From contig OZ220741.1 of assembly GCA_965116885.1 (NCBI GenBank), positions 5,493,750 to 5,557,749 of the forward strand: 64,000 nucleotides of DNA. Reading direction: 5' to 3'. Both the position numbers and the translations under genes were made by a program. This DNA comes from Candidatus Latescibacterota bacterium (GTDB taxonomy: Bacteria; Latescibacterota; UBA2968). Positions 8,266-22,954 of this stretch are shown piece by piece (within the stretch, counting starts at the first letter, position 1; every line of letters starts with the position of its first letter). The notes under the pieces are model-generated. The model searched no databases and was not told where the DNA came from. It worked only from the letters and a program-made list of their open reading frames with translations.

Positions 8266-9081
8266 ATGTATCGTCACTGTATTTGTGCAGGTGTATTAAT
8301 TCTTCTGAGCCTTCCCCTATGGTCACAACAGAACACCGGGGATAGTGTGCCTTCACCTGGGGAGACATTTCAAGACTGTGCTGAATGTCCAAAGATGGTT
8401 GTTGTGCCATCGGGAAGGTTCACGATGGGGTCACCCAAGCGTGAGGGGGGTGATGATGATGAAAAACCGATGCGCAGGGTGCGTATAGATTACCGGTTTG
8501 CGGTGGGTGTATATGAGGTGACCTTTGACGAATGGTATGCCTGTGCGGATGCAGGAGGTTGTGGAAGCTATGTGCCGGATGATGAGGGCTGGGGCCGCGG
8601 GAATCGTCCGGTGGTGAATGTGAGTTGGAAAGATGCCCAGTCTTATTTGCGTTGGCTGTCTGCCCGGACGGGTAAAACGTATCGTTTATTGAGTGAAGCG
8701 GAATGGGAGTATGTGGCACGCGCAGGCACAGAGACAGCGTATAGCTGGGGTGACAGCGTAGGTGTCAACCGCGCCAATTGCGATGGTTGCGGCAGTCAGT
8801 GGGATGATAAGATGACAGCACCAGTGGGATCTTTCGCGGCCAATGCTTGGGGCGTGTACGATATGCACGGGAATGTAGGGGAATGGGGGCAGGATCATTG
8901 GAATGAGAATTACAGGGGCGCACCTTTAGACGGTTCTGCGAGGGAGCCTGAGGATACCCTTTATCGCGTATTACGTGGTGGTTCGTGGCTCGACAGACCG
9001 GGGGACTTGCGTTCGGCGAATCGCGACAAGGGCTTCATCCGGTCCTCCCGCCGCGGTTTTCGAGTTGCCCGGTCTTTTTAA
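8266..9081 (+). CDS. Secreted FGE-sulfatase/SUMF1-like (CLec-fold) protein A
   Basis: Signal-like N-terminus; CPKMVVVPSG.F.MGS, YEVTF.EW, PVVNVSW.DA, YRLLSEAEWEY, N.WG.YDMHGNV.EW, RGGSW...GFRVAR. Confidence 0.9.
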   Translation: MYRHCICAGVLILLSLPLWSQQNTGDSVPSPGETFQDCAECPKMVVVPSGRFTMGSPKREGGDDDEKPMRRVRIDYRFAVGVYEVTFDEWYACADAGGCGSYVPDDEGWGRGNRPVVNVSWKDAQSYLRWLSARTGKTYRLLSEAEWEYVARAGTETAYSWGDSVGVNRANCDGCGSQWDDKMTAPVGSFAANAWGVYDMHGNVGEWGQDHWNENYRGAPLDGSAREPEDTLYRVLRGGSWLDRPGDLRSANRDKGFIRSSRRGFRVARSF

Positions 9082-9124
9082 CTCGTGATTCTTTACAGAA
9101 ACATCAACGAAAGGAAGGTGCGTC

Positions 9125-9964
9125 ATACAGAGCATAATCAAAGGCATTCTTTTTACAGTCTTATTGGGACTTTTCGCGGTTGCATCTGCCCAACTGCCGC
9201 ACACCGGGGATAGTGCGCCTTCACCTGGAGAAACTTTTCAAGATTGTGCTGAATGTCCAAAGATGGTGGTGATACCATCGGGATCGTTCAGGATGGGATC
9301 ACCCGCGCGTGAGAGGGGTGATGCTAATGAAAGGCCGTTGCATAGGGTACGTATAGATTACCGGTTTGCGGTGGGGGTATATGAGGTAACATTTGACGAA
9401 TGGTATGCTTGTCTGGATGCAGGAGGTTGTGGAAACTATCTTCCGGATATTCCAGATAATAGCTGGGACCGCGAGAATCGTCCTGTGATCAATGTGAGTT
9501 GGGACGATGCACAGTCTTATGTTAGTTGGTTGTCAGACCGGACGGGTAAAACGTATCGTTTATTGAGTGAATCGGAATGGGAGTATGTGGCGCGTGCTGG
9601 TTCAACGACGAAGTATAGCTGGGGAGACAGCATCGGTGTCAACCGTGTCAATTGTGTCGCTTGCGGCGATCAGTGGGGTAGTAAGACAGCGCCAGCGGGA
9701 TCGTTCGCGGCCAATGCTTGGGGCGTTCACGATATGCACGGGAATGTAATGGAATGGGTACAGGACTGTAGGAACGACAGTTATGAAGGTGCGCCTACTG
9801 ATGGAAGTGCCTGGCTATCTGGAGACTGCGACAGGCGCATGTTTCGTGGTGGTTCGTGGTGCCTCGCTCCGAGTTACTTGCGCTCTGCAGAACGCTACGG
9901 GATCTCCACCGATGATCGGGAATTCGTCTGCGGACTCGGTTTTCGAGTTGCCCGGTCTTTTTAG
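9125..9964 (+). CDS. Secreted FGE-sulfatase/CLec-fold protein B; start codon appears to be ATA
   Basis: Same motifs as A. In-frame ATA at 9125 follows AAGGAAGG and aligns with Met1 of paralog D (21305). Confidence 0.8.
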   Translation: MQSIIKGILFTVLLGLFAVASAQLPHTGDSAPSPGETFQDCAECPKMVVIPSGSFRMGSPARERGDANERPLHRVRIDYRFAVGVYEVTFDEWYACLDAGGCGNYLPDIPDNSWDRENRPVINVSWDDAQSYVSWLSDRTGKTYRLLSESEWEYVARAGSTTKYSWGDSIGVNRVNCVACGDQWGSKTAPAGSFAANAWGVHDMHGNVMEWVQDCRNDSYEGAPTDGSAWLSGDCDRRMFRGGSWCLAPSYLRSAERYGISTDDREFVCGLGFRVARSF

Positions 9965-10219
9965 CTCCTCTCATCTAACAGATGCCCAAATGCTTCAAGA
10001 CTGGACACCTGAATCGCCGCTCGGTGCAACTGCTTGAGGCGTTGCAGATCGTCGATAGCGGCAATGCGAGCAGATATGGGGTGTGACTCAGACATATCAA
10101 ATCTCTAACACTTCGAGGATATCTTCAAGCGTGCTTTTTCTTTCCCCTTGCTCAAAACTTTCCTCTCTGCTTTGTTGGGTAAGGTGTTGAAAAAGAGATG
10201 ATTCGCGAATGAGATCCAT
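9961..10219 (-). pseudogene. Small protein resembling the C-terminal tail of Rpn/YhgA-like proteins, frameshifted
   Basis: MDLIRESSLFQHLTQQSREESFEQGERKSTLEDILEVLEI* then, in another frame, FDMSESHPISARIAAIDDLQRLKQLHRAAIQVSSLEAFGHLLDERS*; 5-nt deletion relative to the paralog near 22560. Confidence 0.65.
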
Positions 10220-10248
10220 GTGGGCTTCTCTTTGTAAAGTTTTTATAC

Positions 10249-10470
10249 TCACTGACCGTTTGTTGTATTCCCATTTTGATCTTCTAAGGCAGTGCGTATG
10301 GCTTCTATGTCAATATCCGGATGCATTTTTTTAACGATAGCAATGGTTTCCTCATGTCCTTTTCTTTGCCCATCCTGGAAGCGTTTTTCAAGATACCTTT
10401 CAGTCTCAGCACGGATTTTTTGAACTGGGACGATCATGAGATTTACCCCCTCTATAATGAAGAATGCTAA
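10249..10470 (-). pseudogene. 3' remnant of a membrane protein gene paralogous to 22424-22954
   Basis: 10370-10470 is nearly identical to 22646-22744 (LAFFIIEGVNLMIVPVQKIRAETERYLEKRFQDG); N-terminal TM part is deleted. Confidence 0.7.
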
Positions 10471-10481
10471 TATGCCCTTAA

Positions 10482-10611
10482 ATATGCTGTATTGCGCAGT
10501 TGTTCACAACTTGAATTTGTGGATTGCCTGTTAAAGCGGAGATGGAGCAGAACAGATGTTGGTGTATATTTTGAGCGACGAATGAGAGGTATGGTGAAAG
10601 ATATGTACTTC
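10482..10611 (+). repeat. Diverged copy of 23187-23324, marking the right end of the duplicated module
   Basis: Shared TATGCTGTATTG.GCAGTTGTTCACAA...GTGTATATTTTGAGC...GGTATGGTGAAAGA.ATGTACTTCT. Confidence 0.8.
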
Positions 10612-10669
10612 TGTATTATACACTAAAGCGGGGTAATTCCAATGGCCGAGTACCAGGTGGGAAAAGATC

Positions 10670-11185
10670 CTACAACCGCCGAGATAGTCGCCTTATGCGC
10701 TGGCGCGTTTCATGAGAAGGTAGGAACACCAGTTCATCTTCAAGAAAAAGCTGTAACGCATTATACAGAACCTCAACCGGCACGACCCCCTGGGTTTCCA
10801 TCTCGTCTGTGGTCCAGAGTACGCCATGGACCTCAATTCCTTTCTCCTCTGCTATTCTCCGCAAGAGACCATCACCCGTCAACAGGATGCAGTCCTCGAT
10901 TTGTTCAGCCAGTACCAGCGCAAAGCAATCATTGAGCGCGAGCCTGGCATATTGATTGAAATACCGGGCGGCGTGCTGTACGAGGGGTCCCGGCAATGTG
11001 TGTACTTCAAGTCCCAGATCGAGCAAGGCTCTTTTTTCGTCCGCGCTCAAACCCAGCCATTCATTCTCGAAAAGAGTATCGGGCATTACAAATGAATAGG
11101 GGAGTTGCAACATCGCTTCGAGAAGACCGCCCTTCCTCAGATCGATCATACAACTCGTATCGCTAACTACTGTCTGCATTGCCAC
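10670..11185 (-). CDS. PIN-domain protein (putative ribonuclease toxin)
   Basis: VVSDTSCMIDL, LNDCFALVLA, LLTGDGLLR acidic PIN pattern; overlaps the upstream XRE-ImmA gene. Confidence 0.8.
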   Translation of the reverse strand: MAMQTVVSDTSCMIDLRKGGLLEAMLQLPYSFVMPDTLFENEWLGLSADEKRALLDLGLEVHTLPGPLVQHAARYFNQYARLALNDCFALVLAEQIEDCILLTGDGLLRRIAEEKGIEVHGVLWTTDEMETQGVVPVEVLYNALQLFLEDELVFLPSHETRQRIRRLSRRL

Positions 11186-12239
11186 TGGCAGGTCCTTTCA
11201 GCCCTTTTTCGATGTCTGCCAATGGCTTTTGCAACAACTCGCAAGCTTTTCCTGGATCGATGAGTTTCTCGGCAAGTGCCCAATAACAAAGCCTCTCAAA
11301 TCGCTGCGGCACTTCGTGATTTCCTTTCAACAATTCCGGTTCGCGCTTCCGCCAGCCGCGCGCAAACGTCCGGAACGCATAGTCGAAAGTCGATTGATTG
11401 ATGATGCCGACCTGCCTGAGACGGACCAAAAGCGTTGCCGCGCTTACCCGGTATATGCGCTTGATCTGGATCAATTCCCGATAACAGAGGGCCTTTCTCT
11501 GTTCGCCTATTGCGCGCATCAGATGATCTTTAGGCATCAGAAAAGCTCCAGCGAAGATGTCTGACGCCTTTTCACGATTGACAGGCGAGGTTTTATCGAT
11601 TAGCTGGTGTGCAAGTTCGTGGGCGAGGGCAAACCGCCGCCTTTCCTGCGAGGCCTCCGCGTTTACAACAATAACCGGTATCCTAATCTTTTGCTGCGAC
11701 CTGTACACAAAACAGGTGAGTCCCGAGACGCGATCGGGCAGGGGCATCATGAGCACCTTGATGCCTCGATCCTCCAGCAAAGCGGTCATATTGGGGATGG
11801 GATCAACTCCCAGTTGCCATTTTTGGCGCAGATTCTGTGCCAGAACTTCACTGTCTTCCTCGCGTTCCAGCCACCGTTTACCCAATCGGGGAGCCTTCGA
11901 GGTCCCACTATCGCCTGAGAGTATCTCTTCAATGGCAAAGTAGCGTTGCAGGCTGTCAATGACCGCCGCCTCAACGCGTGCTCGATTACCGGCACTCATG
12001 CCCGGGTGCTTGCGAAACTCGGGGATTTTGAGGGCTTCGACGCGTTCGCTGAGCAGATAGTCCAGTGAAACGCCGAGCACGCTGGCGAGATGAATCAGTA
12101 CGCTGGAGCGCGGCATCATTTCTCCGCGTTCATATTTTCCAATGGCCTGCGCAGTCACTTCACCGTCCAGCGCGTAGGAGAGACCGCGCAGTGAATAACC
12201 GGCCTTTTTTCGGGCGAGTTGCAAGTGCTTTCCAAACAT
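11163..12239 (-). CDS. XRE-family HTH fused to an ImmA/IrrE (M78) metallopeptidase
   Basis: N-terminal HTH (LARKKAGYSLRGL...IGKYERG); RRFALAHELAH HExxH motif; E..A..FAGAFLMP. Confidence 0.9.
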   Translation of the reverse strand: MFGKHLQLARKKAGYSLRGLSYALDGEVTAQAIGKYERGEMMPRSSVLIHLASVLGVSLDYLLSERVEALKIPEFRKHPGMSAGNRARVEAAVIDSLQRYFAIEEILSGDSGTSKAPRLGKRWLEREEDSEVLAQNLRQKWQLGVDPIPNMTALLEDRGIKVLMMPLPDRVSGLTCFVYRSQQKIRIPVIVVNAEASQERRRFALAHELAHQLIDKTSPVNREKASDIFAGAFLMPKDHLMRAIGEQRKALCYRELIQIKRIYRVSAATLLVRLRQVGIINQSTFDYAFRTFARGWRKREPELLKGNHEVPQRFERLCYWALAEKLIDPGKACELLQKPLADIEKGLKGPASGNADSS

Positions 12240-12358
12240 GTAATTCCTCAGCCTTGTGGTTTACAATTTTCTATTTTATATTCAAAATGTAAATATAAAT
12301 GTTGCGTTGCACAACCAAAAATCAGGAGGTTAAAATTGGAGAAAGAGATGGAACAACT

Positions 12359-12486
12359 AGCTGGGGTGACAGCGTAGGTGTCAACCGTGCCAATTGCGTT
12401 GGTTGCGGCAGTGCGTGGGATGGTGAGCAGACAGTGCCAGTGGGCTCATTCGAGGCCAATGGTTGGGGCTTTACGACATGCACGGC
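12359..12486 (+). pseudogene. Internal fragment of a fifth FGE/CLec gene
   Basis: SWGDSVGVNRANCVGCGSAWDGEQTVPVGSFEANGWG, then frameshift to YDMHG; matches the middle of genes A-D. Confidence 0.8.
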
Positions 12487-12538
12487 AGCGCGCGTATGGC
12501 ATCTATGTCAATATGGTGAAAGAAATGTTCCCTGGATC

Positions 12539-14965
12539 TCACTCACTTCGCAGGGAATCCACAGGATTAGCGCCCGCAGTTCTGACTGCCTGCCACCCCA
12601 CCGTCATCAGAGCGATGATCAGCGTCAACACCCCACTCAAAATGAAAAACCCGATACTCAGGTCAATGCGATAGGCGAAGTTGTGGAGCCAGCCGCTCAT
12701 CGCGTAATAAGCGACGGGCCAGGCAAGGAGATTTGCCAGAACAACGGGCTTTACAAAATCCTTTGTAAACAGCAGCACAATATTCGCGACGGATGCCCCC
12801 AGCACCTTCCGAATCCCCACCTCCTTCGTCCGCTGTTCCGCTATATAAGAAGCCAGACCAAACAGACCAAGACAGGCGATACAAATAGCCAGCGCCGTCA
12901 AACCGCCAAGCATCTTGCCGCGCTGTTCATCTGCGCGATACTGGCGTTCAAAATAATCGTCCAAAAATGCGTATTCAAATGGAGAATAGGGAACATAGGA
13001 CTCCCACTTCTCTTTCAAAAAACTCAGCGCATCCGAACTCCGATTGGGACGAACCCTGACCAAAAAATAATAACCGCCACTCGGCGAAATATGCAAGAAC
13101 ATCGGTTCAATCTGCTGATAAAGAGATTGAACGTGAAAATCCTTCACCACGCCTATGACAGTACGAGGACGGCTCTCCCGAAAGGTCAACACCAATTCCT
13201 TACCAAGAGCTTCTTTGGGCGAACCCCAGCCAAAATGCACGACCGCTGTTTCGTTTACAACAACCGCGTCAGATTCGTCGGTCGAAAAATCTTTTGAAAA
13301 ATCCCTCCCCTCGACTATCTCGATTCCAAGCGTCTTTATAAAATCGTGATCGACCGCATAGCCCGGCACCTGCATTTCACCCTGAACGCCTTCCGGATGC
13401 ACTGGCCGTCTGCGAAGAGGAAATCCCGTTGACCGCGTTGGCACAGGTACACGAGATGATAGCGTGCAACTCAGGAGATCGGGACTCTGCAAAAAGTCAG
13501 CCTTGATCGCCTCGTATTTTGCACGGAGATCTCGATGTCTGAAAAGCGGCAGAGAAATAACATTCGCCCTTTCAAACCCCAGATCCTTGTCTTTCACATA
13601 CGCCATTTGCGAATAAATAACGCTCGTACCTGTAATCAGCGCGATTGAAATGGCAAATTGGACAACCACGAGCAATTGCCTGATGCGCGAAGTCTGCAAA
13701 CCCGCATGCCGCACGCCCTTTAACACCGTCACAGGTTGAAATGCAGAAAGAAAAAACGCCGGATAACTCCCGGCAACAATACCCGTAACAAGCGCGACAC
13801 CTGCCAAACCCAATATTGCAGATATACTGGTGTATTCAACGACCAATTGCTGACCGATCAAACGATTAAAAAGCGGCAGTGAAAGTTCGACAAGAGAAAC
13901 CGCAAACAAAAGCGCAATAAATGCCAGCAGTGCAGATTCACCTATAAATTGCCGGATCAATTGCAGGCGGTAAGCTCCGACAACCTTTCTTATACCCACC
14001 TCCTTCGCACGCGCAGCAGAACGCGCCGTGGAAAGATTCATAAAATTGATACAGGCGATCAAGAGCACAAAGCAGGCGAGAGCGGAAAAGATATAGACGT
14101 GAACAATATCGCTATTCGGCTCGATCTCGTGACTCAAATGTGAGTAGAGGTGGATTCTCGTAAGGGGCTGTAAGAAGAATCTCACACCCATTCCACGCTC
14201 TGACAGCACCTCTCCCATGTATTTTTTCACAAACGTGGGAAATTTATCCTCAAGCTCCTGGGGCGAATATCCCTTCGGAAGAACCAGGTATGTATAGAGC
14301 AACGGATTTGACAGCCAATTCTTCAGAATAGCACTTGTCGCGCCTCTCTCATGTAAACTCGCATACGAAGCCAGAATTTCGAATCTAAAATGAGAATTGC
14401 GCGGAATTTCCCGTATAATCCCCGTCACCGTGTAATGGTTTTGCACGACAGGTGTTACAAATGTGAGAACCTGACCCATAGGATCTTTTGTGCCAAAGTA
14501 CTTGCGTGCCGCTCTCTCGGTAAGCACGACAGAATAGGGTGACTGAAGAGCCGTATGCCGGTCTCCCTTAATTAAGGGAAAATCAAAAACCTCCAAAACC
14601 GATGCATCTCCAAAAAGGATAGACTCTTGAAAGCGGTTATTCTCATGAAAGATCACAGATGACCCACGTATGAACCTGGCGGCCTGGACAACCTCGGGAA
14701 ATTCGGCGCGCAAAGCCGGAGCCAATGGAGGAGGAGAAGTCGCCGTTGGCATAACCTGTCCATCTGTGGCTATTCGCTCCTGTGCAACCCTGTAAATCCG
14801 ATCTGCTTTTTCATGGTACGTATCATAACTGAGTTCAAAGCGGACAAAACTCAAAATCAAGACACAGGTAGCTATGCCAATCGCCAATCCCGCTATGTTG
14901 ACAAATGAATAAACCTTTTGCCGAAACAGATTGCGAAAAGCAACTGTCAGATAATTTCTTAACAT
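12539..14965 (-). CDS. MacB/FtsX-family ABC transporter permease (two permease domains)
   Basis: MLRNYLTVAFRNL, IACINFMNLSTARS..RAKEVGIRKVVGA, RTKEVGIRKVLGAS, ANPVDSLRSE. Confidence 0.93.
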   Translation of the reverse strand: MLRNYLTVAFRNLFRQKVYSFVNIAGLAIGIATCVLILSFVRFELSYDTYHEKADRIYRVAQERIATDGQVMPTATSPPPLAPALRAEFPEVVQAARFIRGSSVIFHENNRFQESILFGDASVLEVFDFPLIKGDRHTALQSPYSVVLTERAARKYFGTKDPMGQVLTFVTPVVQNHYTVTGIIREIPRNSHFRFEILASYASLHERGATSAILKNWLSNPLLYTYLVLPKGYSPQELEDKFPTFVKKYMGEVLSERGMGVRFFLQPLTRIHLYSHLSHEIEPNSDIVHVYIFSALACFVLLIACINFMNLSTARSAARAKEVGIRKVVGAYRLQLIRQFIGESALLAFIALLFAVSLVELSLPLFNRLIGQQLVVEYTSISAILGLAGVALVTGIVAGSYPAFFLSAFQPVTVLKGVRHAGLQTSRIRQLLVVVQFAISIALITGTSVIYSQMAYVKDKDLGFERANVISLPLFRHRDLRAKYEAIKADFLQSPDLLSCTLSSRVPVPTRSTGFPLRRRPVHPEGVQGEMQVPGYAVDHDFIKTLGIEIVEGRDFSKDFSTDESDAVVVNETAVVHFGWGSPKEALGKELVLTFRESRPRTVIGVVKDFHVQSLYQQIEPMFLHISPSGGYYFLVRVRPNRSSDALSFLKEKWESYVPYSPFEYAFLDDYFERQYRADEQRGKMLGGLTALAICIACLGLFGLASYIAEQRTKEVGIRKVLGASVANIVLLFTKDFVKPVVLANLLAWPVAYYAMSGWLHNFAYRIDLSIGFFILSGVLTLIIALMTVGWQAVRTAGANPVDSLRSE

Positions 14966-15249
14966 GGCCTCCCCTTTTTAAAATTGAATCAGCCTCCTCA
15001 ATATAGATTTAGACAAGATGTTTTTTTTAAGGTTTCTAAAAAATCTTCACATCCAGACCACCAATATCGGGCAGCAATCGCCCCGTTTTACCCCGCTTGA
15101 CATTGGACATCAACGTAGTATTTTCTTACACAAAGATATTATCAAATGTTGTGGATGGCGTCGCGCGCATCATTAGAATTAAAGCGTGAACGAGCCTGGA
15201 CCAGTTGTATCCCATCCCCAATGCAGGCGCGTGATAATAAGGGTTTTTT

Positions 15250-18200
15250 ATGATCAGATCACTTGACCGCAAAGGCATCTGGCAGACTTATTCTATGGCC
15301 GATGGTCTGGCTGGAGTACGCATTGAACACATCGCCGAAGATAGCGAAGGTTATCTCTGGTTCGCCACATGGGACAACGGTGTTAGTCGCTTCGATGGAG
15401 ACGAGTTTCAGAATTTTACCAAACAGAATGGTCTTGTTAACGACCACGTTTATTTTATTTCAAAGGACAGTCAGAAGCGGTTGTGGTTCGGTACATTAAG
15501 TGGTGTCTGCTGGTATGACGGATCAGAGTTCCGCCATTTGGAAGATACCGGGATCGCACGCCGACCTGTCCAGTTCATCTACGAAGATAATGAAGGGCGT
15601 ATATGGTGTGGCGGTCACAGGACCCTGGGATATTACGACGGTACTGTGTTCCGAGACATGATTCCGCTCTACCTTCAGCAGTATCAGGAACCACCTTCTC
15701 CTGAGTGGCCCAACCAGTGCCGGGGCATTGTCGAGGACCCAGAAGGCCACATGTGGTTTGGCTTTAACTACCTCATCCGTTTCGATGGTCAATCCTTCCA
15801 CCGCTATGAAGAGAAAGAGGGGTTTCCGCGAGGCAAGATAAACTATGCTGTGGGGCAGGACAATACCGGTAAGGTGTGGGTGGGGCAGCACGAAAGCAAA
15901 AACGAACTCTGGTGCTATACCCATGGCACCTTTGAGCCGGTTGAGATAAATTTGGGTAGCCCACTGCGCAAAATCCAGTGTGACCGGGAAGGCCGAATGT
16001 GGTTCTGCACTTCAGAAGGGGGATTGTATCAGGACGGTGACGGGTTCAGCAGGTTTACTCCTGCCGATGGCCTGCCCCATCCCGCAGTCAAAGCCGTATT
16101 ACAGGATCGAGATCATCAGTATTGGTTTGCCACCTGGGGTGGCGTCGGGCTTTACGATGCACATAGTATCAGCGTTTTCGACTTCAGCTCAAGGGGTTCT
16201 AAAAGAGTGAGCGAGATCTCCCACATCGCACAAGATCGGCGAGGTGATATGTGGGTCGGGTATGTAGCTCCCGCTCTCAACCGGCTGGAGAAAAGCGTTT
16301 TTCGCTTTGATGGCGAGGACTTTGACTTTGTAGGCACTGAGGATGGCTTTGATATCGACAACTGTTTCGCTATCTACGAGGACTGCGATGGGGACCTGTG
16401 GTTTGGTGGCCACAATGGCTTATTCCGCTACAATGGGAAGAAAATAGAAAAAATGCAAACAATCGCAGGTTTAGGAAAAAGAAGTGTCAGTGCAATTACC
16501 CAGGACTCGCAAGGGCGATTCATTTTTGGCCATTGGGAAAGCAACAACATAATCGAAAAAATAGATCTTCTTGTCAGTCCTTTGAAGATCATTTATCAGC
16601 GGGGTGAGCAGTTCCAAGCCATTTTTGTAGAAGATAAAAATAAGGATCCTTTCAGCTACATTGGTACTGTGATTACCGGGCGAGATGGCGAGGTCTATTT
16701 TCATCTCATTCACCAAAATTTTTCCGACAACGATAGGGGTTTCGCGCGCTGGCATCCAGAAGAGGGGCTCAAATTCTATGGAATTGAAGACGGACTGATA
16801 GACCACAGGGTCAATGATCTTCTCAAAGACCGCGATGGCAACTTGTGGATCGCTACTCAAAGAGGTCTCAGTTGCTTTGACGGCAGTACCTTCCACAATT
16901 TTACGACGAAAGATGGGCTGCCGAGCAATGCCATCCGTTGCTTATTCGAAGATTCGCAAGGCCACCTCTGGCTTGGCACAGACGGGGGCGTAGTTCACTA
17001 CGATGGCCAGCTTTTCCAGACCATCAAATCACCTCACATAGGACCCGTTCTTCAGATACTCGAAGATCGCGACGGGGCTTTCTGGTTCGGTACAGTCCAA
17101 AACACTGTGGTGCGCTACCGGCAACAAAAAAAATCGCCCCAGATTCACCTGATTCAAGTTGTCGCCGGTCAGGTCTATGAGAACCTGCAGGAAGGCATCG
17201 TATCTACGATAGATCAAGATATAATTTTTGAATACAAGGGCCTGAGTTTTTCCACGCATCCCCGCGACATGCTCTATGTCTATCGCCTGAAGGATTATGA
17301 TTCCGACTGGCAACCTGCAACTCGAAAGACGCGGGCCTACTACCGGAACTTGCCACCGGGAGACTACACCTTTCAGGTCAGGGCGATAGATCGCGATCTC
17401 AATTACTCGGAGACCGCACAGGCGCGACTTTCCGTAGAAATGGACCCGCGCATCAGCGCGCTGACCTCCATAATCAACAGCACGGATGGCGTTGGCAAAG
17501 AATTTATCGGTGAGAGTGCGGCACTGCACGCGTTTCAAATCCAGCTTAGACAGGTGGCATCTACTGATCTGTCGGTGCTGTTTAAGGGCGAGACGGGTGT
17601 GGGCAAGGGATTGGCTGCGCGGGTGTTACACGCGCTGAGTTCCAAGTGCGATGGCCCTTTTATGCAGGTCAACTGCGGTGCCTTGCCAACAGCACTGATC
17701 GATAGTGAACTCTTTGGTCACGAGAGGGGCGCATTTACCAGCGCAGTGTCTCGCAGGCTGGGCAAGGTAGAACTGGCTAAGGGCGGCACGCTCTTTTTGG
17801 ACGAAGTCGGCGACATGAGCCTGGAAACGCAAGCCAGGATGTTGCGCTTGCTGGAAGAGGGCACGTTTGAGCGCGTTGGAGGCAGCGAGACGCTATCGAT
17901 ACAGGCGCGGATTGTAGCAGCGACCAATCGCGACCTTGAAGAGATGGTCAATGCAGGTACTTTCCGCGAGGATCTCTATTATCGCATCAATGCCTTTCCA
18001 ATGTCTTTACCGCCCCTGCGCGAGCGCAAGGAGGATATCCCAGACCTTGCCGAGCTTTTCAAGACTCGCATGGCCACACATCTGGACAAGCAAATCGAGC
18101 CTCTGGCGGTAGAGGTGATAGAAGTGCTGCAAGCCTACGATTGGCCAGGCAATGTACGAGAACTGGAACACACGATAAACCGCGCCGTCATCGTGTGTCA

Positions 18201-18429
18201 AGATTCTCAAATTGAAGTTGCGGACATCGGCCTGATAAACAGTAGCCCTCCTGTTTCTCCAGACAGCGAAATCGTGCCAATGGCTGAATTTGAACGCGAT
18301 TATATTCTCAAAGCACTCAAAGCGACCAACTGGAAAATAAGGGGAACCGAAGGCGCGGCGACACTGCTGCAATTACCGCCTTCTACCCTGTATGGCAAAA
18401 TGAGAAAACTGGGGATCAAGCGTCCCTGA
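15250..18429 (+). CDS. Sigma54-dependent transcriptional activator with N-terminal Reg_prop beta-propellers and a Y_Y_Y domain
   Basis: Many DxxGxLWxxT..G repeats; YVYRLKDYD...YYRNLPPGDYTFQVRA (Y_Y_Y); Walker A GETGVGK, ELFGHERGAFTSA, LFLDEVG, FREDLYYR, WPGNVREL; Fis-type HTH. Confidence 0.93.
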   Translation: MIRSLDRKGIWQTYSMADGLAGVRIEHIAEDSEGYLWFATWDNGVSRFDGDEFQNFTKQNGLVNDHVYFISKDSQKRLWFGTLSGVCWYDGSEFRHLEDTGIARRPVQFIYEDNEGRIWCGGHRTLGYYDGTVFRDMIPLYLQQYQEPPSPEWPNQCRGIVEDPEGHMWFGFNYLIRFDGQSFHRYEEKEGFPRGKINYAVGQDNTGKVWVGQHESKNELWCYTHGTFEPVEINLGSPLRKIQCDREGRMWFCTSEGGLYQDGDGFSRFTPADGLPHPAVKAVLQDRDHQYWFATWGGVGLYDAHSISVFDFSSRGSKRVSEISHIAQDRRGDMWVGYVAPALNRLEKSVFRFDGEDFDFVGTEDGFDIDNCFAIYEDCDGDLWFGGHNGLFRYNGKKIEKMQTIAGLGKRSVSAITQDSQGRFIFGHWESNNIIEKIDLLVSPLKIIYQRGEQFQAIFVEDKNKDPFSYIGTVITGRDGEVYFHLIHQNFSDNDRGFARWHPEEGLKFYGIEDGLIDHRVNDLLKDRDGNLWIATQRGLSCFDGSTFHNFTTKDGLPSNAIRCLFEDSQGHLWLGTDGGVVHYDGQLFQTIKSPHIGPVLQILEDRDGAFWFGTVQNTVVRYRQQKKSPQIHLIQVVAGQVYENLQEGIVSTIDQDIIFEYKGLSFSTHPRDMLYVYRLKDYDSDWQPATRKTRAYYRNLPPGDYTFQVRAIDRDLNYSETAQARLSVEMDPRISALTSIINSTDGVGKEFIGESAALHAFQIQLRQVASTDLSVLFKGETGVGKGLAARVLHALSSKCDGPFMQVNCGALPTALIDSELFGHERGAFTSAVSRRLGKVELAKGGTLFLDEVGDMSLETQARMLRLLEEGTFERVGGSETLSIQARIVAATNRDLEEMVNAGTFREDLYYRINAFPMSLPPLRERKEDIPDLAELFKTRMATHLDKQIEPLAVEVIEVLQAYDWPGNVRELEHTINRAVIVCQDSQIEVADIGLINSSPPVSPDSEIVPMAEFERDYILKALKATNWKIRGTEGAATLLQLPPSTLYGKMRKLGIKRP

Positions 18430-18435
18430 TTACCG

Positions 18436-18465
18436 TCCGTATATGGATTATAGTCCATATATGGA
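18436..18465. promoter_or_regulatory. Candidate enhancer/UAS, copy 2
   Basis: TCCGTATATGGA-N6-TCCATATATGGA; the second half is a perfect palindrome. Confidence 0.55.
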
Positions 18466-18504
18466 TGTTTATATATAACTATTTATTAATCAATAACATA
18501 AGAG

Positions 18505-18568
18505 CCAGTCTGAATTTTTTTGAACCATATACGGTTCAAAGGACATAAAATTCGGGCTGGTTTTTTTT
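18505..18568 (+). terminator. Hairpin plus U-tract downstream of the activator gene
   Basis: Same stem as 7621-7683 followed by 8 T. Confidence 0.6.
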
Positions 18569-18637
18569 GTTGGTATAGAAATTTTATCTCAAATAAAAAT
18601 AACATCTTATGAGTATTTATTTGGATTCCATTCACGT

Positions 18638-18653
18638 TGGCACGCTTTTTGCA
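18638..18653 (+). promoter_or_regulatory. Sigma54 (-24/-12) promoter, copy 2
   Basis: TGGCACGCTTTTTGCA, exact consensus, downstream of a sigma54 activator gene. Confidence 0.9.
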
Positions 18654-18919
18654 CTATATCTAAACATTTAATGCCATAAAGGAGAAGATTGAAACCCAGG
18701 CCCTGAATGCCTCACTTAGAGAACTTGCCGGGCGAATCACCCCCGACTAGCCCGGCCCAGGGCGATAGATGAGATTTTAGGCATAATTCTATCGCCCCTC
18801 TGCATTTTCAATGCCATATCAGCGCATTTCACTTCTTCAAGTATGCGCCGTGTGGCTTTATCAGTAGATCCACCAACATCGCGTGTGAGTCGAAGAACAA
18901 GCATATAAAGGAGGCATCT

Positions 18920-20056
18920 ATGTGGAACCGTATGATCTTAACCATTTGTCTGGTATTCGTGTTGCCAGGTCTGGCATTGACTGGCGACATGACCCACGTC
19001 CCGGACAGGGACTTCGATAAGCTACGTGCCGCAGGAAACAGAAACCCCACAGGGGTCTGGTCAAACGGAACGACCATGTGGGTGGCGGACAGGCGCGCTA
19101 AAATTTATGCCTACAACATGAGGACCAGAGCTCGTGACCGAGGCAGGGAATTCAATACGTTAGCCACTGAAAACGAATCTCCTGCAGGAATCTGGTCAGA
19201 CGGCACGACTATGTGGGTAGTGGACCTTGCTGACGGTAGGATTTTTGCCTACAGCATGAGATCTAAAGCCCATGATCCGGACAAGAGCTTCTATCTCGCC
19301 GTAGAACACGACGTCCCTGAAGGAATCTGGTCGGATGGGACAACCATGTGGGTGAAGGAAAGCTCTTACCAATTCGATAAAATTTATGCCTACAACATGA
19401 GGTCTAAAGCCCGTGATCCGAACAAGGACTTCAATACGCTAAAAGCCGCCGGAGAGCAAAGCACTGACGGAATTTGGTCAGACGGAACGACCATGTTGGT
19501 AGCAGACGGATATCGGCATAAAATTTACGCCTACAACATGAGATCTAAAGCCCGTGACCGGGGCAAGGAATTCGATCTCGCCGCAGGAAACACCTCCCCT
19601 ACGGGTATCTGGTCGGACGGAACGACTATATGGGTAGCGGACTACGACAGGGGCCACATTTATGCCTACGGCGGCCTGGGCACCACCAGTGATCAGGCCA
19701 TCCAGGACTTTTCAATGAAAATCAGAGGCTCGACGGGAACCCTGAAGGTTTGCGTGCGTGACCACGAGTGCGAAGACGGCGATAAGATCAGGGTTGATAT
19801 AGATGGCAGGAGCATATTTTCCGGAGAAATTGACAACGACTGGGACTGCTACAATCTGACGGTCTGGTCAGGCGAGAGCTATGCAGTGGAATTGACAGCG
19901 CTCAACGGGACGGGATACAAGGGGGACCACTGTAGCCACAGAGACGTTAACACGGGCGAGATCCGCGTTACTGGAGAGAACACAAAAACGCAGGTCTGGC
20001 GTCATCGCGGAGGTGCCGGGTCGAAAGCGCGTATCATCGTGGAAACAGCGAGGTGA
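18920..20056 (+). CDS. Secreted protein with five ~45-aa GIWSDGTTMWV repeats (probable beta-propeller) and a Cys-containing C-terminal beta domain
   Basis: AAGGAGG RBS; signal-like MWNRMILTICLVFVLPGLALT; five repeats of G(I/V)WS(D/N)GTT(M/I)xVxx...I(Y/F)AY. Confidence 0.85.
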   Translation: MWNRMILTICLVFVLPGLALTGDMTHVPDRDFDKLRAAGNRNPTGVWSNGTTMWVADRRAKIYAYNMRTRARDRGREFNTLATENESPAGIWSDGTTMWVVDLADGRIFAYSMRSKAHDPDKSFYLAVEHDVPEGIWSDGTTMWVKESSYQFDKIYAYNMRSKARDPNKDFNTLKAAGEQSTDGIWSDGTTMLVADGYRHKIYAYNMRSKARDRGKEFDLAAGNTSPTGIWSDGTTIWVADYDRGHIYAYGGLGTTSDQAIQDFSMKIRGSTGTLKVCVRDHECEDGDKIRVDIDGRSIFSGEIDNDWDCYNLTVWSGESYAVELTALNGTGYKGDHCSHRDVNTGEIRVTGENTKTQVWRHRGGAGSKARIIVETAR

Positions 20057-20102
20057 GATCATCCAAATGTTGTTCAAAAATATTAATGAAAGGATACACA
20101 AG

Positions 20103-20921
20103 ATGTATCGTCACTGTATTTGTGCAGGTGTATTAATTCTTCTGAGCCTTCCCCTTTGGTCACAACAGGACACCGAGGATAGTGCGCCTTCACCTAATGA
20201 GACGTTTCAAGATTGCGACGAATGTCCAAAGATGGTGGTGATCCCATCGGGCAGGTTCACGATGGGATCATCCAGGGGGGAGGCGGGACATAAAGATAAT
20301 GAAGAACCGTTGCATAGGGTGCGTATAGATTACCAATTTGCCGTAGGCGTATATGAGGTGACATTTGCCGAATGGTATGCCTGTGTGGATGCAGGTGGTT
20401 GTGGAAACTATATTCCGGATGATTGGCACTGGGGCCGCGGGAATCGCCCTGTGATGAATGTGAGTTGGGAAGATGCCCAGTCTTATGTGCGTTGGCTGTC
20501 TGTCCGGACGGGTAAATCATACCGTTTATTGAGTGAAGCGGAATGGGAGTATGTGGCGCGTGCAGGGACAGAGACAGCGTATAGCTGGGGAGACAGCATA
20601 GGTGTCAACCGTGCCAATTGCTTGGGTTGCGGCGATCAATGGGATAAGACCGCGCCTGTGGGATCTTTCGCAGCCAATGCTTGGGGTGTTCACGATATGC
20701 ACGGCAATGTGCAGGAGTGGGTACAGGACTGTTGGAATGACAGTTATGAGGGCGCACCTACAGACGGTTCTGCGCGGGAGGAGGAGGAGTGCAATGATCG
20801 CGTTGTCCGTGGTGGTCCGTGGTACTATACTCCGAAGTACGTGCGTTCTGCGTCTCGCAGCTCGGACTTCTCCGACTACCGGTTCCGCGGCCTCGGCTTT
20901 CGAGTTGCCCGGGATTTTTGA
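20103..20921 (+). CDS. Secreted FGE-sulfatase/CLec-fold protein C (paralog of A)
   Basis: Signal peptide MYRHCICAGVLILLSLPLWSQQ identical to A; full FGE-sulfatase motifs. Confidence 0.9.
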   Translation: MYRHCICAGVLILLSLPLWSQQDTEDSAPSPNETFQDCDECPKMVVIPSGRFTMGSSRGEAGHKDNEEPLHRVRIDYQFAVGVYEVTFAEWYACVDAGGCGNYIPDDWHWGRGNRPVMNVSWEDAQSYVRWLSVRTGKSYRLLSEAEWEYVARAGTETAYSWGDSIGVNRANCLGCGDQWDKTAPVGSFAANAWGVHDMHGNVQEWVQDCWNDSYEGAPTDGSAREEEECNDRVVRGGPWYYTPKYVRSASRSSDFSDYRFRGLGFRVARDF

Positions 20922-21304
20922 ACCTTTGGGTTCACCTCTTTGCCCTTTTGTAGGGGATAGGAGAGGTTGGTTTTACGATTTTTTTAAGCAACCACGGATG
21001 AATACCGATAAACACGAATGAAAGGCAAAAAGCCGAAAGCAACCACAGCATAGGCAGGCAACACAACAGAGTGTCTAAAATCCCTAAAATTCGATAAGCA
21101 GCATCAATCACAGGGATTGACCCCAAGCCCTAAACTCTCCACCGAAGCGGGGTAACTCCAGCACAATAAAAACCCTGCAAGATAGCGTAAGCGCCCTGCA
21201 AGATTCGGTGAACAAACATCCAGATAGACACCTTCACATTATAGCGGCGAAACTTGATACCTTGAGAGACCTTTACAAAGTGACCAAGGAATAGGAGAAA
21301 CACC

Positions 21305-22141
21305 ATGCGACAAGTGCTTATTGCCTTCTTTATTCCGGCCTTATTGGGACTTTTCGCGGTTGCATCTGCCCAACTGCCGCACACCGGGGATAGTGCGCCT
21401 TCACCTAATGAGACTTTTCAAGACTGTGATGAATGCCCAAAGATGATTGTCGTGCCGTCAGGATCGTTCACGATGGGGTCACGCGCGCGTGAGAGGGGTC
21501 CTGCTAATGAAAGGCCGAGGCATAGGGTTCGTATAGATTACCAGTTTGCAGTGGGTGTATATGAGGTGACATTTGACGAATGGTATGCTTGTCTGGATGC
21601 AGGAGGTTGTGGAAACTATCTTCCGGATATTCCAGATGATAGCTGGGACCGCGGGAATCGTCCTGTGATCAATGTGAACTGGGAAGATGCCCAGTCTTAT
21701 GTTCGTTGGTTGTCAGCCCGGACGGGTAAAACGTATCGTTTATTGAGTGAAGCGGAATGGGAGTATGTGGCACGGGCAGGTACAGAGACGGCGTATAGCT
21801 GGGGGGACAGTATCGGTGTCAACCGTGCCAATTGCTCTGGTTGCGGCAGTCAGTGGGATGGTAAGATGACAGCACCAGTGGGATCATTCGCGGCGAATGC
21901 CTGGGGCGTTTACGATATGCACGGGAATGTGTGGGAATGGGTTCAAGATTGCTGGAATGATAGCTATGTGGGCGCACCTTCAGACAGTTCTGCATGGGAG
22001 TCTGGGGATTGCTCTGAGCATGTGATACGTGGTGGTTCGTGGGGCGAAGTACCGAGAAACCTGCGTTCTGCGTATCGCTACGGGATGAACACCGAGTACC
22101 GGTTCAGATTCCTCTGTTTTCGAGTTGTCCGGGATCTTTAA
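21305..22141 (+). CDS. Secreted FGE-sulfatase/CLec-fold protein D (paralog of B)
   Basis: AGGAG RBS; signal peptide; shares LLGLFAVASAQLPHTGDSAPSP and NYLPDIPD.SWDR with B. Confidence 0.9.
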   Translation: MRQVLIAFFIPALLGLFAVASAQLPHTGDSAPSPNETFQDCDECPKMIVVPSGSFTMGSRARERGPANERPRHRVRIDYQFAVGVYEVTFDEWYACLDAGGCGNYLPDIPDDSWDRGNRPVINVNWEDAQSYVRWLSARTGKTYRLLSEAEWEYVARAGTETAYSWGDSIGVNRANCSGCGSQWDGKMTAPVGSFAANAWGVYDMHGNVWEWVQDCWNDSYVGAPSDSSAWESGDCSEHVIRGGSWGEVPRNLRSAYRYGMNTEYRFRFLCFRVVRDL

Positions 22142-22219
22142 CTCCTCTCATCTAACAGGTGCCCAAATGCTTCAAGACTGGACACCTGTATCGCCGCGCG
22201 GTGCAACTGCTTGAGGCGT
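22139..22219 (-). repeat. Duplicated 3' end of the Rpn-tail-like gene (also at 9961-10041 and 22427-22499)
   Basis: CTCATCTAA.AG.TGCCCAAATGCTTCAAG.CTGGACACCTG.ATCGCCGC.CGGTGCAA.TGCTTGAG occurs three times. Confidence 0.85.
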
Positions 22220-22250
22220 GAGATAGGGGCATTTCAGGCATCAAAAGTTA

Positions 22251-22423: not shown

Positions 22424-22954
22424 TCACTCATCTAAGAGATGCCCAAATGCTTCAAGGCTGGACACCTGAATCGCCGCGCGGTGCAATTGCTTGAGACGTT
22501 GCAGATCGTCGATAGCGGCAATGCGAGCAGATAGGGGATCTGTCTTGAGGAGATCAAATCGAATCTCCAGCACGTCGAGAATACTTTCCCGGAGTCCTTG
22601 CTCTATGCCTTGCTCTATGCCTTGTTCAATTCCTTTTCTTTTCCCATCCTGGAAGCGTTTTTCAAGATATCTTTCAGTCTCAGCACGGATTTTTTGAACT
22701 GGGACGATCATGAGATTTACCCCCTCTATAATGAAGAATGCTAAAGTGATAGCAGAGAGACCTATGGATCCTATAATACTGATTACCGTAATAATTGCAT
22801 CGTAATCAGGTTCAGTAATTTTGTACCAATTGTACCAAAGAACCAGTGCCAGAGAAGAGACAAAGAACAGTGCTGCTAAAGCTATCAGCCATGTTCTTTC
22901 TGTATCTCCGGTGCTCCAAATCGACACCCTTTCTTCTTCCGTTTTCTCCGCCAT
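22424..22954 (-). CDS. Two-TM membrane protein fused to a GIEQ-repeat Rpn-like C-terminal tail
   Basis: Hydrophobic segments WLIALAALFFVSSLALVLWY and IITVISIIGSIGLSAITLAFFII, then GIEQGIEQGIEQG-LRESILDVLEIRF...LEAFGHLLDE. Confidence 0.7.
   Translation of the reverse strand: MAEKTEEERVSIWSTGDTERTWLIALAALFFVSSLALVLWYNWYKITEPDYDAIITVISIIGSIGLSAITLAFFIIEGVNLMIVPVQKIRAETERYLEKRFQDGKRKGIEQGIEQGIEQGLRESILDVLEIRFDLLKTDPLSARIAAIDDLQRLKQLHRAAIQVSSLEAFGHLLDE

What the first reader, a model, noticed from the sequence alone, without database searches (positions are those of the whole stretch)
8974..22141. Four secreted CLec/FGE paralogs carry a DGR-like hypermutation footprint, with no RT or template repeat in the window
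Seen: the genes are highly similar until RGG(S/P)W, then diverge sharply (8974-9081, 9845-9964, 20808-20921, 22028-22141). Aligned codons after TGG (A/B/C/D): ctc/tgc/tac/ggc; invariant ccg; gac/tac/tac/aac; ttg/ttg/gtg/ctg; invariant cgc; gac/tac/agc/tac; aag/ggg/tcg/ggg; ttc/tcc/ttc/aac; invariant cgg; then a conserved tttcgagttg(c/t)ccgg. Positions 1-2 vary while the third base mostly stays fixed, the reverse of neutral drift. Known: DGRs mutate template adenines (AAC to NNC) into the C-terminal variable region of CLec-fold targets, including FGE-type ones. Inference: these are remote (trans) or fossil DGR targets, with a predicted template like TGG AAC AAC AAT CCG..AAC.TG CGT TCT GCG AAT CGC AAC..CGG AAC AAC AAC. 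Indels in A and B and some third-position changes suggest ageing.
Basis: partly seen in the sequence, partly recalled or inferred. Interest (0 to 1): 0.9.

Follow-up and report, generated by a model that had tools for sequence, protein, structure and literature searches.

The report
Orphaned targets of a lost retroelement
Four secreted lectin-fold genes carry the scar of a mutagenic retroelement (DGR) that once rewrote their tips; the element is gone from this genome but intact in a sister species, a loss already described in other bacteria.

Summary

- **The genes.** The four window genes are FGE-sulfatase/C-type-lectin-fold paralogs. Three more (E, F, H) and a 27-nt gene-end remnant (X) lie elsewhere in the genome.
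- **The footprint.** In the last ~35 codons, codon positions 1-2 are hypervariable. The scaffold codons stay identical even at synonymous sites.
- **No machinery here.** The 5.56-Mb single-contig genome has no reverse transcriptase, no bAvd and no template repeat (TR).
- **Machinery in relatives.** A same-genus genome (G016) has an intact cassette: target, bAvd, RT, TR. Its TR has the same length and register as the window's variable regions (VRs). Its adenines coincide with 31 of the 34 hypervariable sites in 22 genus VRs.
- **Decay in other congeners.** Three carry RT fragments beside such genes. One of these loci is collinear with the G000 locus that holds remnant X.
- **Frozen VRs.** Orthologs in two sister species differ in the VR about as much as in the gene body. 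A, B and H carry indels.

These are frozen, orphaned DGR targets. The same situation is published for Treponema denticola isolates without RT or TR, so this is a new member of a known kind. This scan had already noted DGRs with FGE-type targets, and one with its template after the RT, on other DNA.

The parts
8266..9081 (+). Paralog A: signal-peptide-bearing FGE-sulfatase/CLec-fold protein, 271 aa. Its former variable region is 8974-9081 and lacks 4 codons relative to the 24-codon core.
   Evidence: ORF. Pfam PF03781 E 1.4e-52. Codon alignment. The ortholog in G007 (L024) shares the same deletion.
9164..9964 (+). Paralog B, 266 aa from a TTG start; the start and signal peptide are uncertain. 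Its former variable region is 9845-9964 and carries 2 extra codons.
   Evidence: (E 1.5e-50).
20013..20921 (+). Paralog C. The longest ORF starts at 20013. The likely start is the ATG at 20103, which gives the same MYRHCICA N-terminus as A. Its former variable region is 20808-20921, with a 24-codon core of the same length as the G016 template.
   Evidence: (E 1.6e-55). The ortholog in G012 is L022.
21305..22141 (+). Paralog D, 278 aa, with an N-terminal signal-like segment ending ASAQ. Its former variable region is 22028-22141, with a 24-codon core.
   Evidence: (E 5.6e-54).
12359..12511 (+). A 51-residue fragment of another paralog, 63% identical to D residues 165-214. It has no VR and is probably a pseudogene remnant.
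   Evidence: tblastn. The ORF 12299-13297 that contains it has no Pfam match.
18920..20056 (+). A 378-aa repeat protein just upstream of C. Homologous genes sit next to paralog H in this genome and inside the decayed DGR locus of G014. It is a recurrent neighbour of unknown role.
   Evidence: L069 5828-6987 matches G000 5512653-5513797 and 5208048-5209215. One search gives only weak Pfam hints. One search shows joints typical of internal repeats.

Best explanation
A-D, together with E, F and H elsewhere in the genome, are former targets of a diversity-generating retroelement. In an ancestor, a DGR reverse transcriptase with bAvd copied a template repeat into cDNA and misread its adenines. That cDNA replaced the last ~105 nt of each target gene. 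The Asn-type codons (AAC/AAT) of the ligand-binding face were randomised, while every non-adenine base was reset to the template. Both halves of the footprint follow from this: hypervariable codon positions 1-2, and a scaffold conserved at the nucleotide level. The cassette (bAvd, RT, TR) was later lost from this lineage. The variable regions then froze and now drift like ordinary coding sequence. The gene bodies stay under purifying selection, so the genome keeps a fixed repertoire of differently tipped secreted lectin-fold proteins.

Shown here: the footprint, the absence of the machinery, a matching intact cassette in a congener, decaying cassettes in other congeners, and the frozen state. 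Inferred: that the ancestor's template was of the G016 type, the order of events, and ligand binding as the function.
For: 1. **Footprint.** See the observation check.
2. **Template homogenisation.** Compare subfamily A-E with F and H at positions where the amino acid is the same. Codons are identical in 41-49% of body positions but in 81-100% of VR scaffold positions (10 pairs, one-sided Fisher p 1e-5 to 7e-3). Paralog G has the same amino-acid scaffold but shows only 31-38% in all 7 of its pairs, so it serves as an internal control.
3. **Intact cognate DGR in G016.** The cassette is target, bAvd, RT, TR. Its own adjacent VR (L164) differs from the TR at 17 of 33 adenines and at 1 of 82 other bases. 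Across its eight live-looking VRs the figures are 14-19 of 33 adenines and 1-3 of 82 other bases.
4. **Window and genome VRs against that TR.** Over the 105-nt codon frame, C, D, E and F mismatch at 17-23 of 33 adenines and at 12-16 of 72 other sites, Fisher p 2e-7 to 9e-4.
5. **Genus-wide pattern.** In 22 distinct 24-codon VRs, mean entropy is 1.56 bits at TR adenines and 0.31 bits elsewhere. In AAY codons it is 1.67 bits at positions 1-2 and 0.60 bits at position 3. Of 34 sites above 1.2 bits, 31 are TR adenines, out of 33 adenines in all.
6. **No machinery in G000.**
   - PF00078: 0 matches at E<=0.01.
   - G016 RT and Avd by tblastn: best E 0.85 and 0.49.
   - G016 RT by the genome search: 0 matches.
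   - blastn of the four VRs and of the G016 cassette finds only the paralogs.
7. **Decay in congeners.**
   - RT fragments lie next to VR genes in G006 (residues 63-177, 93% identity, plus a half TR at 92%), G014 (residues 227-348, with a frameshifted target) and G008 (residues 1-114, one stop).
   - The G014 locus is collinear with G000 5196177-5209215. There G000 keeps only the target's N-terminal part fused to the last 27 nt of the gene (remnant X), with no RT fragment.
8. **Frozen state.** Ortholog pairs A/G007 and C/G012 have body dS 0.30-0.32 and body dN/dS 0.23-0.24. Their VR+tail dN is only 0.12-0.13.
9. **Sponge metagenomes.** Contigs from two samples cover the C VR with 1 difference each. 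One of them covers the D VR with 0 differences.
Against: - No template from G000's own lineage exists to compare with. The TR used is from another species, so part of the 14-20 non-adenine mismatches may reflect a different ancestral TR and not age.
- The within-population test was not informative. The only raw-read run laid 7 reads, and assembled contigs drop rare variants.
- The assembly is a single chromosome-sized contig. A DGR on an unassembled plasmid or phage cannot be excluded.
- Between A and its G007 ortholog, 7 of the 10 VR differences fall on TR-adenine positions in the first six variable codons. This could mean some adenine-directed change after the split, or simply the least constrained sites.
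- Adenine sites coincide with the ligand-facing codons. The adenine versus non-adenine contrast alone therefore does not separate DGR action from selection. The synonymous-site test and the congener TR carry that weight.
Confidence: 0.85

Rival explanations
1. The four genes are still being diversified in trans by a DGR that is not in the assembled chromosome, for example on a plasmid, a phage or an unbinned contig.
For: DGRs with remote targets are documented (passages of PMC4891356 and PMC8144416 read). The 3' boundary motif TTTCGAGTTG(C/T)CCGG is kept in all of A-F and H. The assembly is one contig, so extrachromosomal elements would be missing. Seven of 10 VR differences between A and its G007 ortholog fall on TR-adenine positions.
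Against: Indels in A, B and H break register with a shared template, and A's deletion predates the split from G007. Non-adenine mismatches are 14-20 of 82, against 1-3 of 82 in G016's live-looking VRs. Ortholog VR dN is 0.12-0.13 at body dS 0.30-0.32. Contigs of two samples differ from the C VR by 1 base each, and one matches the D VR with 0 differences. No close relative of the G016 RT was found in the viral contig collection, though that method finds only close relatives.
Confidence: 0.07
2. Ordinary positive or relaxed selection on the ligand-binding loops of duplicated lectin-fold genes, with no retroelement ever involved.
For: The variable codons lie on what is the binding face in solved DGR variable proteins (recalled, not tested here). 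Elevated dN in binding loops of paralogs is common. No RT is present in the genome.
Against: This does not explain why third positions of the hypervariable codons stay C/T: entropy is 0.60 bits there against 1.67 bits at positions 1-2. It does not explain why scaffold codons are 81-100% identical at synonymous sites between subfamilies whose bodies show 41-49%, while control paralog G shows 31-38%. It does not explain why 31 of 34 hypervariable sites are adenines of a real TR in a congener.
Confidence: 0.03
3. Gene conversion or recombination among paralogs keeps the 3' end uniform, and the variable codons are simply the sites that escape it.
For: Paralogs sit in tandem pairs (A-B, C-D) and share flanking repeats. 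Remnant X shows that recombination has happened at the conserved gene end. Contigs in sponge metagenomes join different paralogs (joints), although de Bruijn-graph repeats can produce the same joints.
Against: Conversion tracts would homogenise the interleaved variable codons as well. Here conserved and hypervariable bases alternate within single codons (NNC). The alternation follows the adenines of a known TR.
Confidence: 0.03

Closest known systems
[quoted passage not shown] 2016, PMC4891356; passages read), and the TvpA DGR of that species
   Same: The targets are FGE-sulfatase/C-type-lectin-fold proteins with signal peptides. One TR serves several targets, some of them remote. Isolates with neither RT nor TR keep genes whose VRs differ from the TR of related isolates mostly at adenines, which the authors read as remnants of repeated DGR loss.
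   Different: The phylum and habitat differ: here Ca. Latescibacterota MAGs, going by the record titles of relatives, held in sponge-metagenome runs. The proteins are only distantly related to TvpA (2y3c, E 1.4e-12). The orphan set is larger, with 7 genes plus remnants. Three orphans carry indels. Ortholog comparison shows the freeze predates species splits.
Intact DGR of same-genus genome G016 (L060/L079): target, bAvd, RT, TR
   Same: It has the same VR scaffold at the nucleotide level, the same 24-codon variable core and the same 3' boundary motif. Its RT is 79-93% identical to the RT fragments in three other congeners.
   Different: G000 has no bAvd, RT or TR. G000 VRs carry 14-20 of 82 non-adenine mismatches against 1-3 of 82. 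About 7 scaffold bases differ consistently (GGT, TCG, CCG, TTG, CGT, GCG, and AAT at codon 16), which suggests a slightly different ancestral template.
Bordetella phage BPP-1 DGR (mtd-avd-TR-brt), the prototype
   Same: The mechanism is the same: adenine-specific mutagenic retrohoming into the C-terminal VR of a C-type-lectin-fold protein, with a conserved 3' boundary.
   Different: BPP-1 is phage-borne with a single tail-fibre target, and its TR lies before the RT. Here the targets are chromosomal and multi-copy, the congener's TR lies after the RT, and the machinery has been lost.
PvdO (PDB 5hha)
   Same: It is the closest solved structure by sequence (E 5.6e-54, query residues 28-278). It shares the FGE-like fold and the same C-terminal scaffold (R-G-x-x-W ... 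R-S ... R ... GFRVA).
   Different: PvdO is a single-copy pyoverdine-maturation protein and is not known to be DGR-diversified (recalled). No pyoverdine genes were seen next to A-D.

Membership tests
DGR variable protein (target gene) | C-terminal variable region on a C-type-lectin/FGE-sulfatase fold | tested here: met
   PF03781 matches over the full profile, E 1e-50 to 1e-55. The variable stretch is the last ~35 codons.
DGR variable protein (target gene) | A cognate template repeat that differs from the VR almost only at adenines | tested here: inconclusive
   G000 has no TR. Against the TR of congener G016, over the 105-nt codon frame, mismatches are 17-23 of 33 adenines and 12-16 of 72 other sites for C-F. 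Of 34 hypervariable genus sites, 31 are TR adenines. The feature is met as a historical footprint, not as a present VR/TR pair.
DGR (complete element) | DGR-clade reverse transcriptase in the genome | tested here: not met
   PF00078 gives 0 matches at E<=0.01 in the 98.4%-complete single-contig genome. The G016 RT gives 0 matches and a best tblastn E of 0.85.
DGR (complete element) | Accessory protein bAvd | tested here: not met
   tblastn with the G016 bAvd gives a best E of 0.49. The G016 protein itself matches PF22296 at E 2.2e-18. No Pfam bAvd search of the whole G000 genome was run.
DGR (complete element) | Conserved 3' boundary (IMH-like) where VR/TR homology ends | tested here: met
   In G016, VR/TR identity ends after GGTTTTCGAGTTGCCCG. 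The same motif is kept in A, B, C, E, H and X, and with one change in D and F. Function of the motif was not tested.
DGR (complete element) | Ongoing diversification: population-level adenine-site variation, or orthologs with scrambled VRs | tested here: not met
   Ortholog VR dN is 0.12-0.13 at body dS 0.30-0.32. Contigs from two samples differ by 0-1 base in the C and D VRs. The raw-read test was uninformative, with 7 reads laid.
Formylglycine-generating enzyme (catalytic FGE/SUMF1) | Conserved catalytic cysteine pair in the C-terminal segment (recalled from the FGE literature) | not tested
   Alignments to solved FGEs cover only query residues ~101-246 and stop before the VR. The segment after RGGSW is hypervariable among the paralogs with no conserved Cys pair. 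No explicit alignment to the catalytic residues was made.

The most novel reading that the evidence does not exclude
In this genus of sponge-associated Latescibacterota the DGR behaves as a transient 'repertoire builder'. It spreads by horizontal transfer among sponge-symbiont phyla, diversifies a cluster of secreted lectin-fold paralogs, and is then repeatedly lost. Each species is left with a frozen, selectively maintained set of differently tipped binders.

Counts behind this reading:
- 1 intact RT, in G016, and 3 RT fragments (G006, G014, G008) among the 21 genomes of the genus, G000 included.
- 14 of those 21 genomes have a match to the G016 template repeat.
- One further Ca. Latescibacterota record, L082, carries an avd fragment.
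- Body dN/dS is about 0.24.
- The same target-avd-RT cassette, with RT 59-74% identical, occurs in MAGs titled Thermodesulfobacteriota, Poriferihabitaceae, Myxococcota and Multivorans.

Diversify-then-freeze would then be a regular evolutionary mode and not an accident of decay.
Probability: 0.3. Interest if true: 0.55.

Novelty: new member of a known kind. Interest (0 to 1): 0.4.

Why it matters
It shows that a DGR's past action can be read from target genes alone. Codon-position asymmetry together with a synonymously conserved scaffold was enough to predict the lost template almost base for base. That is useful for annotating genomes where RT-centred DGR finders see nothing.

Biologically it gives a dated example of DGR loss. 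The diversified paralogs are kept under purifying selection in an uncultured sponge-associated lineage. The ligands of these secreted binders are unknown.

The phenomenon itself, orphan FGE-type targets after DGR loss, is already published for Treponema denticola.

Tried and rejected
- **Remnant X as a template repeat.** I considered the 27-nt gene-end copy X (G000 5202159-5202186) as a TR remnant. Its upstream sequence does not align with any VR. It continues the N-terminal domain of a target-like gene, so it is a deletion junction.
- **Read laying for population variation.** The raw-read run gave 7 reads. The other three runs are assembled contigs mixed with relatives' sequence. They are usable only for the statement that C and D VR contigs match with 0-1 difference.
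- **Viral contig scan with the G016 RT.** Five pattern matches, none confirmed. This gives no support for a phage carrier, and the method finds only close relatives.
- **Synteny between the G016 DGR locus and G000.** Only one flank (L079 184-2809) matches G000, at 3.07 Mb. The rest matches paralogs, so the original position of a G016-type cassette in G000 cannot be placed that way. Only the G014 locus is collinear.
- **Literature searches.** The first used the terms 'diversity-generating retroelement' and 'sponge'. The second used 'diversity-generating retroelements', 'variable region', 'degenerate' and 'remote target'. The first returned 13 papers, none with either term in title or abstract, judged from the listing only. 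In PMC8144416, 'Latescibacter' has 0 occurrences in the main text; its supplements were not looked at.


Full report
**What is there**

The window holds four + strand genes: A 8266-9081, B 9164-9964, C 20013-20921 (likely start 20103) and D 21305-22141.
- Each matches Pfam FGE-sulfatase (PF03781) end to end, E 1.5e-50 to 1.6e-55.
- B, C and D are 69%, 77% and 70% identical in protein to A.
- A, C and D begin with signal-peptide-like hydrophobic segments. B's start is uncertain.
- The genes sit as two tandem pairs about 11 kb apart.
- Between the pairs lie:
  - an HTH/M78 regulator gene;
  - a MacB/FtsX permease gene;
  - a sigma-54 activator gene with a Reg_prop propeller domain;
  - a 378-aa repeat protein gene.

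The window is the last 64 kb of a 5,557,749-bp single-contig genome, 98.4% complete. Record titles of the closest relatives read 'Candidatus Latescibacterota bacterium' MAGs. Earlier notes of this scan give the same label. The stretch is held mainly by sponge-metagenome runs.

Pairwise differences among A-D, by codon position:

| Region | Position 1 | Position 2 | Position 3 | Ratio of positions 1-2 to position 3 |
|---|---|---|---|---|
| Gene body | 0.145 | 0.139 | 0.256 | 0.55 |
| 24-codon variable core | 0.50 | 0.41 | 0.30 | 1.54 |

None of 210 sliding 24-codon body windows reaches the core's ratio (maximum 1.46) or its position 1-2 divergence (maximum 0.32).

**The family is larger**

tblastn and blastn against the genome find more members:
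- E (5205188-6000, - strand).
- F (the C-terminus of a 941-aa surface-type protein with PKD/Ig domains, 4397989-4398678).
- H (5207198-7956), with a ~29-codon insertion in the variable stretch.
- G (4391375-2166), more distant.
- X (5202159-86), a bare 27-nt copy of the gene end.
- A 51-residue fragment at window 12359-12511.

In all, 16 FGE-sulfatase domains are present in the genome.

**The test that separates a DGR from selection**

A DGR overwrites the whole template-homologous stretch, so non-adenine bases, synonymous ones included, are reset to the template. I counted codon identity at positions where two paralogs have the same amino acid, leaving out Met and Trp.
- Between subfamily A-E and F or H, the body gives 41-49% and the VR scaffold gives 81-100% (10 pairs, one-sided Fisher p 1e-5 to 7e-3).
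- Paralog G has the same protein scaffold but gives 31-38% in the VR in all 7 of its pairs. The effect is therefore not a property of the fold.
- Within A-E the bodies are already 69-83% identical at such sites, and the contrast there is mostly not significant.

**The machinery is absent here**

- PF00078 finds nothing in G000 at E<=0.01.
- The G016 RT and bAvd find nothing by tblastn, best E 0.85 and 0.49.
- The G016 RT finds nothing by the genome search.
- blastn of the VRs and of the whole G016 cassette finds only the paralogs.

**The machinery is present in a congener**

A pattern built from the conserved flanks hit 12 of 41 related genomes, G000 included, and 10 of the 20 other genomes of the genus. 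The reversed control gave 0 hits. RVT_1 hit 16 of those 41 genomes.

One hit, in G016, is a 375-aa RT with a YVDD motif.
- It is preceded by a 132-aa bAvd (PF22296, E 2.2e-18, 67 bits against a 40-bit cut-off) and by an FGE-type target gene.
- It is followed by a non-coding copy of the target's end that reads, in the target's frame, as an Asn-rich stretch.
- The adjacent VR (L164) differs from this TR at 17 of 33 adenines and at 1 of 82 other bases.
- Eight G016 VRs differ at 14-19 of 33 adenines and 1-3 of 82 other bases.
- Two further G016 VRs look old, with 14 and 22 of 82 non-adenine mismatches.
I did not check that.

**The congener's template fits the window's genes**

C, D, E and F have exactly the TR's 24 codons between W and GF. 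A lacks 4 codons, B has 2 extra, and H has a long insertion.

Mismatches against the G016 TR. The two calls count different stretches: the 105-nt codon frame (33 adenines, 72 other sites), another the full 115-nt TR (33 adenines, 82 other sites).

| VRs | Adenine sites | Other sites |
|---|---|---|
| C, D, E, F | 17-23 of 33 | 12-16 of 72 |
| C, D, E, F | 17-23 of 33 | 14-20 of 82 |
| G (control) | 24 of 33 | 29 of 72 |
| G (control) | 24 of 33 | 30 of 82 |
| G016's eight live-looking VRs | 14-19 of 33 | 1-3 of 82 |

The search pattern fixed most of the first five and last six codons, but none of the 24 core codons. In 22 distinct 24-codon VRs of the genus:
- Entropy averages 1.56 bits at TR adenines and 0.31 bits elsewhere.
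- In AAY codons it is 1.67 bits at positions 1-2 and 0.60 bits at position 3.
- Of 34 sites above 1.2 bits, 31 are TR adenines. The two non-variable adenines are third positions of GCA and CGA.

About seven scaffold bases differ consistently from the G016 TR in most genus VRs. The ancestral template of this lineage was therefore probably a close variant, and the non-adenine mismatch counts overstate age somewhat.

**Decay elsewhere in the genus**

With the G016 RT as query, 31 genomes of the family were searched.
- Only G016 has a full-length match.
- G006 has residues 63-177 (93% identity). A half TR lies beside it (92%, positions 58-115).
- G014 has residues 227-348 (84%).
- G008 has residues 1-114 (79%, one TAG).
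- Each fragment lies 0.3-1.7 kb from a VR-bearing gene.
- The other matches (G015 with three, G013 and G020 with one each) are 28-30% identical in 584-654-aa frames. I took them for other RT classes without further checks.
- The G014 target is frameshifted.
- A Ca. Latescibacterota record (L082) carries an avd fragment.
- The TR sequence matches 14 of 21 genus genomes.

The G014 locus is collinear with G000 5196177-5209215: 91% identity over 4.6 kb, then 93% over 372 nt, then the target's N-terminal part, then the H ortholog. At the place of the target's FGE domain and the RT fragment, G000 has only remnant X and 237 nt. That is a physical trace of loss by deletion.

**Frozen, but kept**

A's ortholog in G007 shares A's 4-codon deletion. 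C's ortholog is in G012.

| Ortholog pair | Body differences | VR-core differences |
|---|---|---|
| A / G007 | 72 of 765 | 10 of 66 |
| C / G012 | 83 of 756 | 9 of 72 |

- By the NG86 method, body dS is 0.30-0.32 with dN/dS 0.23-0.24. VR+tail dN is 0.12-0.13 and dS 0.13.
- An active DGR would have scrambled roughly two thirds of about 30 adenine sites, as seen in G016.
- Logan contigs of X19 and X20 cover the C VR with 1 difference each, and a contig of X19 covers the D VR with 0 differences. Contigs cannot show rare variants, and X19 may be the source sample.
- One oddity remains. Seven of the 10 differences between A and its G007 ortholog fall on TR-adenine positions in the first six variable codons.

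**Wider setting**

Of 79 loci from other genomes that encode relatives of D, 11 have a tblastn match to the G016 RT and 17 have a match to its bAvd, within 3 kb. Near-full-length RTs, 59-74% identical, occur in MAGs titled Thermodesulfobacteriota, Poriferihabitaceae, Myxococcota, Betaproteobacteria and Multivorans. The cassette with its target has therefore moved between phyla.

By sequence, the closest solved structure is PvdO (5hha, E 5.6e-54). TvpA of T. denticola is distant (2y3c, E 1.4e-12).

**What is known**

Passages of Nimkulrat et al. 2016 (PMC4891356) describe T. denticola isolates with neither RT nor TR. Their FGE-sulfatase 'target genes' differ from the TR of other isolates mostly at adenines. 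The authors read these as remnants after multiple gains and losses.

Passages of Roux et al. 2021 (PMC8144416) note that RT-centred mining misses remote targets. 'Latescibacter' does not occur in that paper's main text; its supplements were not looked at.

The present case is therefore a new member of a known kind. It comes with unusually complete evidence: an intact congener, three decaying congeners, a syntenic deletion, and an ortholog-based freeze date.

**Verdict**

Observation confirmed and interpretation supported, in its fossil version. Confidence 0.85, interest 0.4.

Noticed in passing
window 9970-10214 and 22147-22220; also window ~22427-22583: The sequence just downstream of B and D belongs to a dispersed repeat family. 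At least 10 further copies of 70-250 nt, 77-92% identical, lie around the genome (for example near 0.09, 0.91, 1.03, 1.37, 1.59 and 3.92 Mb). Its nature is unknown.
   Followed up: no
G000:C1:4391125-4391375 (outside the window, downstream of paralog G): A ~65-nt palindromic REP-like element downstream of G has well over 100 copies genome-wide. It is possibly the repeat family that earlier notes of this scan described in this genome.
   Followed up: no
window 9082-9230: B's N-terminus looks damaged. The stretch that encodes D's signal peptide is out of frame with a GTG start in B, which leaves only a short TTG-initiated leader. B may not be secreted, or it may use another start.
   Followed up: partly
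window 18920-20056, G000:C1:5208048-5209215, L069 5820-7028: A 380-400-aa protein made of ~45-residue repeats (IYAYNMRSKA...GIWSDGTTMWV type) recurs immediately beside FGE paralogs. It also sits between the target and the RT fragment in G014. It has no convincing Pfam family.
   Followed up: partly
whole window: GC skew is unusually strong, -0.2 to -0.3 over most of the window, and flips to about +0.2 exactly over the two + strand paralog pairs. Coding strands in this genome are markedly G-rich over C.
   Followed up: no
L017 7043-10104 (G000:C1:5202042-5205103, - strand): The gene that ends in remnant X encodes LRR repeats plus a chondroitinase-B/beta-helix domain (PF14592, E 2.5e-46). It is followed by a separate 116-aa frame that carries the former linker to the deleted FGE domain. 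This looks like a polysaccharide lyase that once carried a DGR-diversified lectin tip.
   Followed up: partly
L079 (G016:C1:4205000-4224999): G016 packs at least seven VR-bearing paralogs into about 18 kb around its DGR, plus one remote VR at 0.67 Mb that still fits the TR (2 of 82 non-adenine mismatches). This is a multi-target DGR with a remote target.
   Followed up: partly
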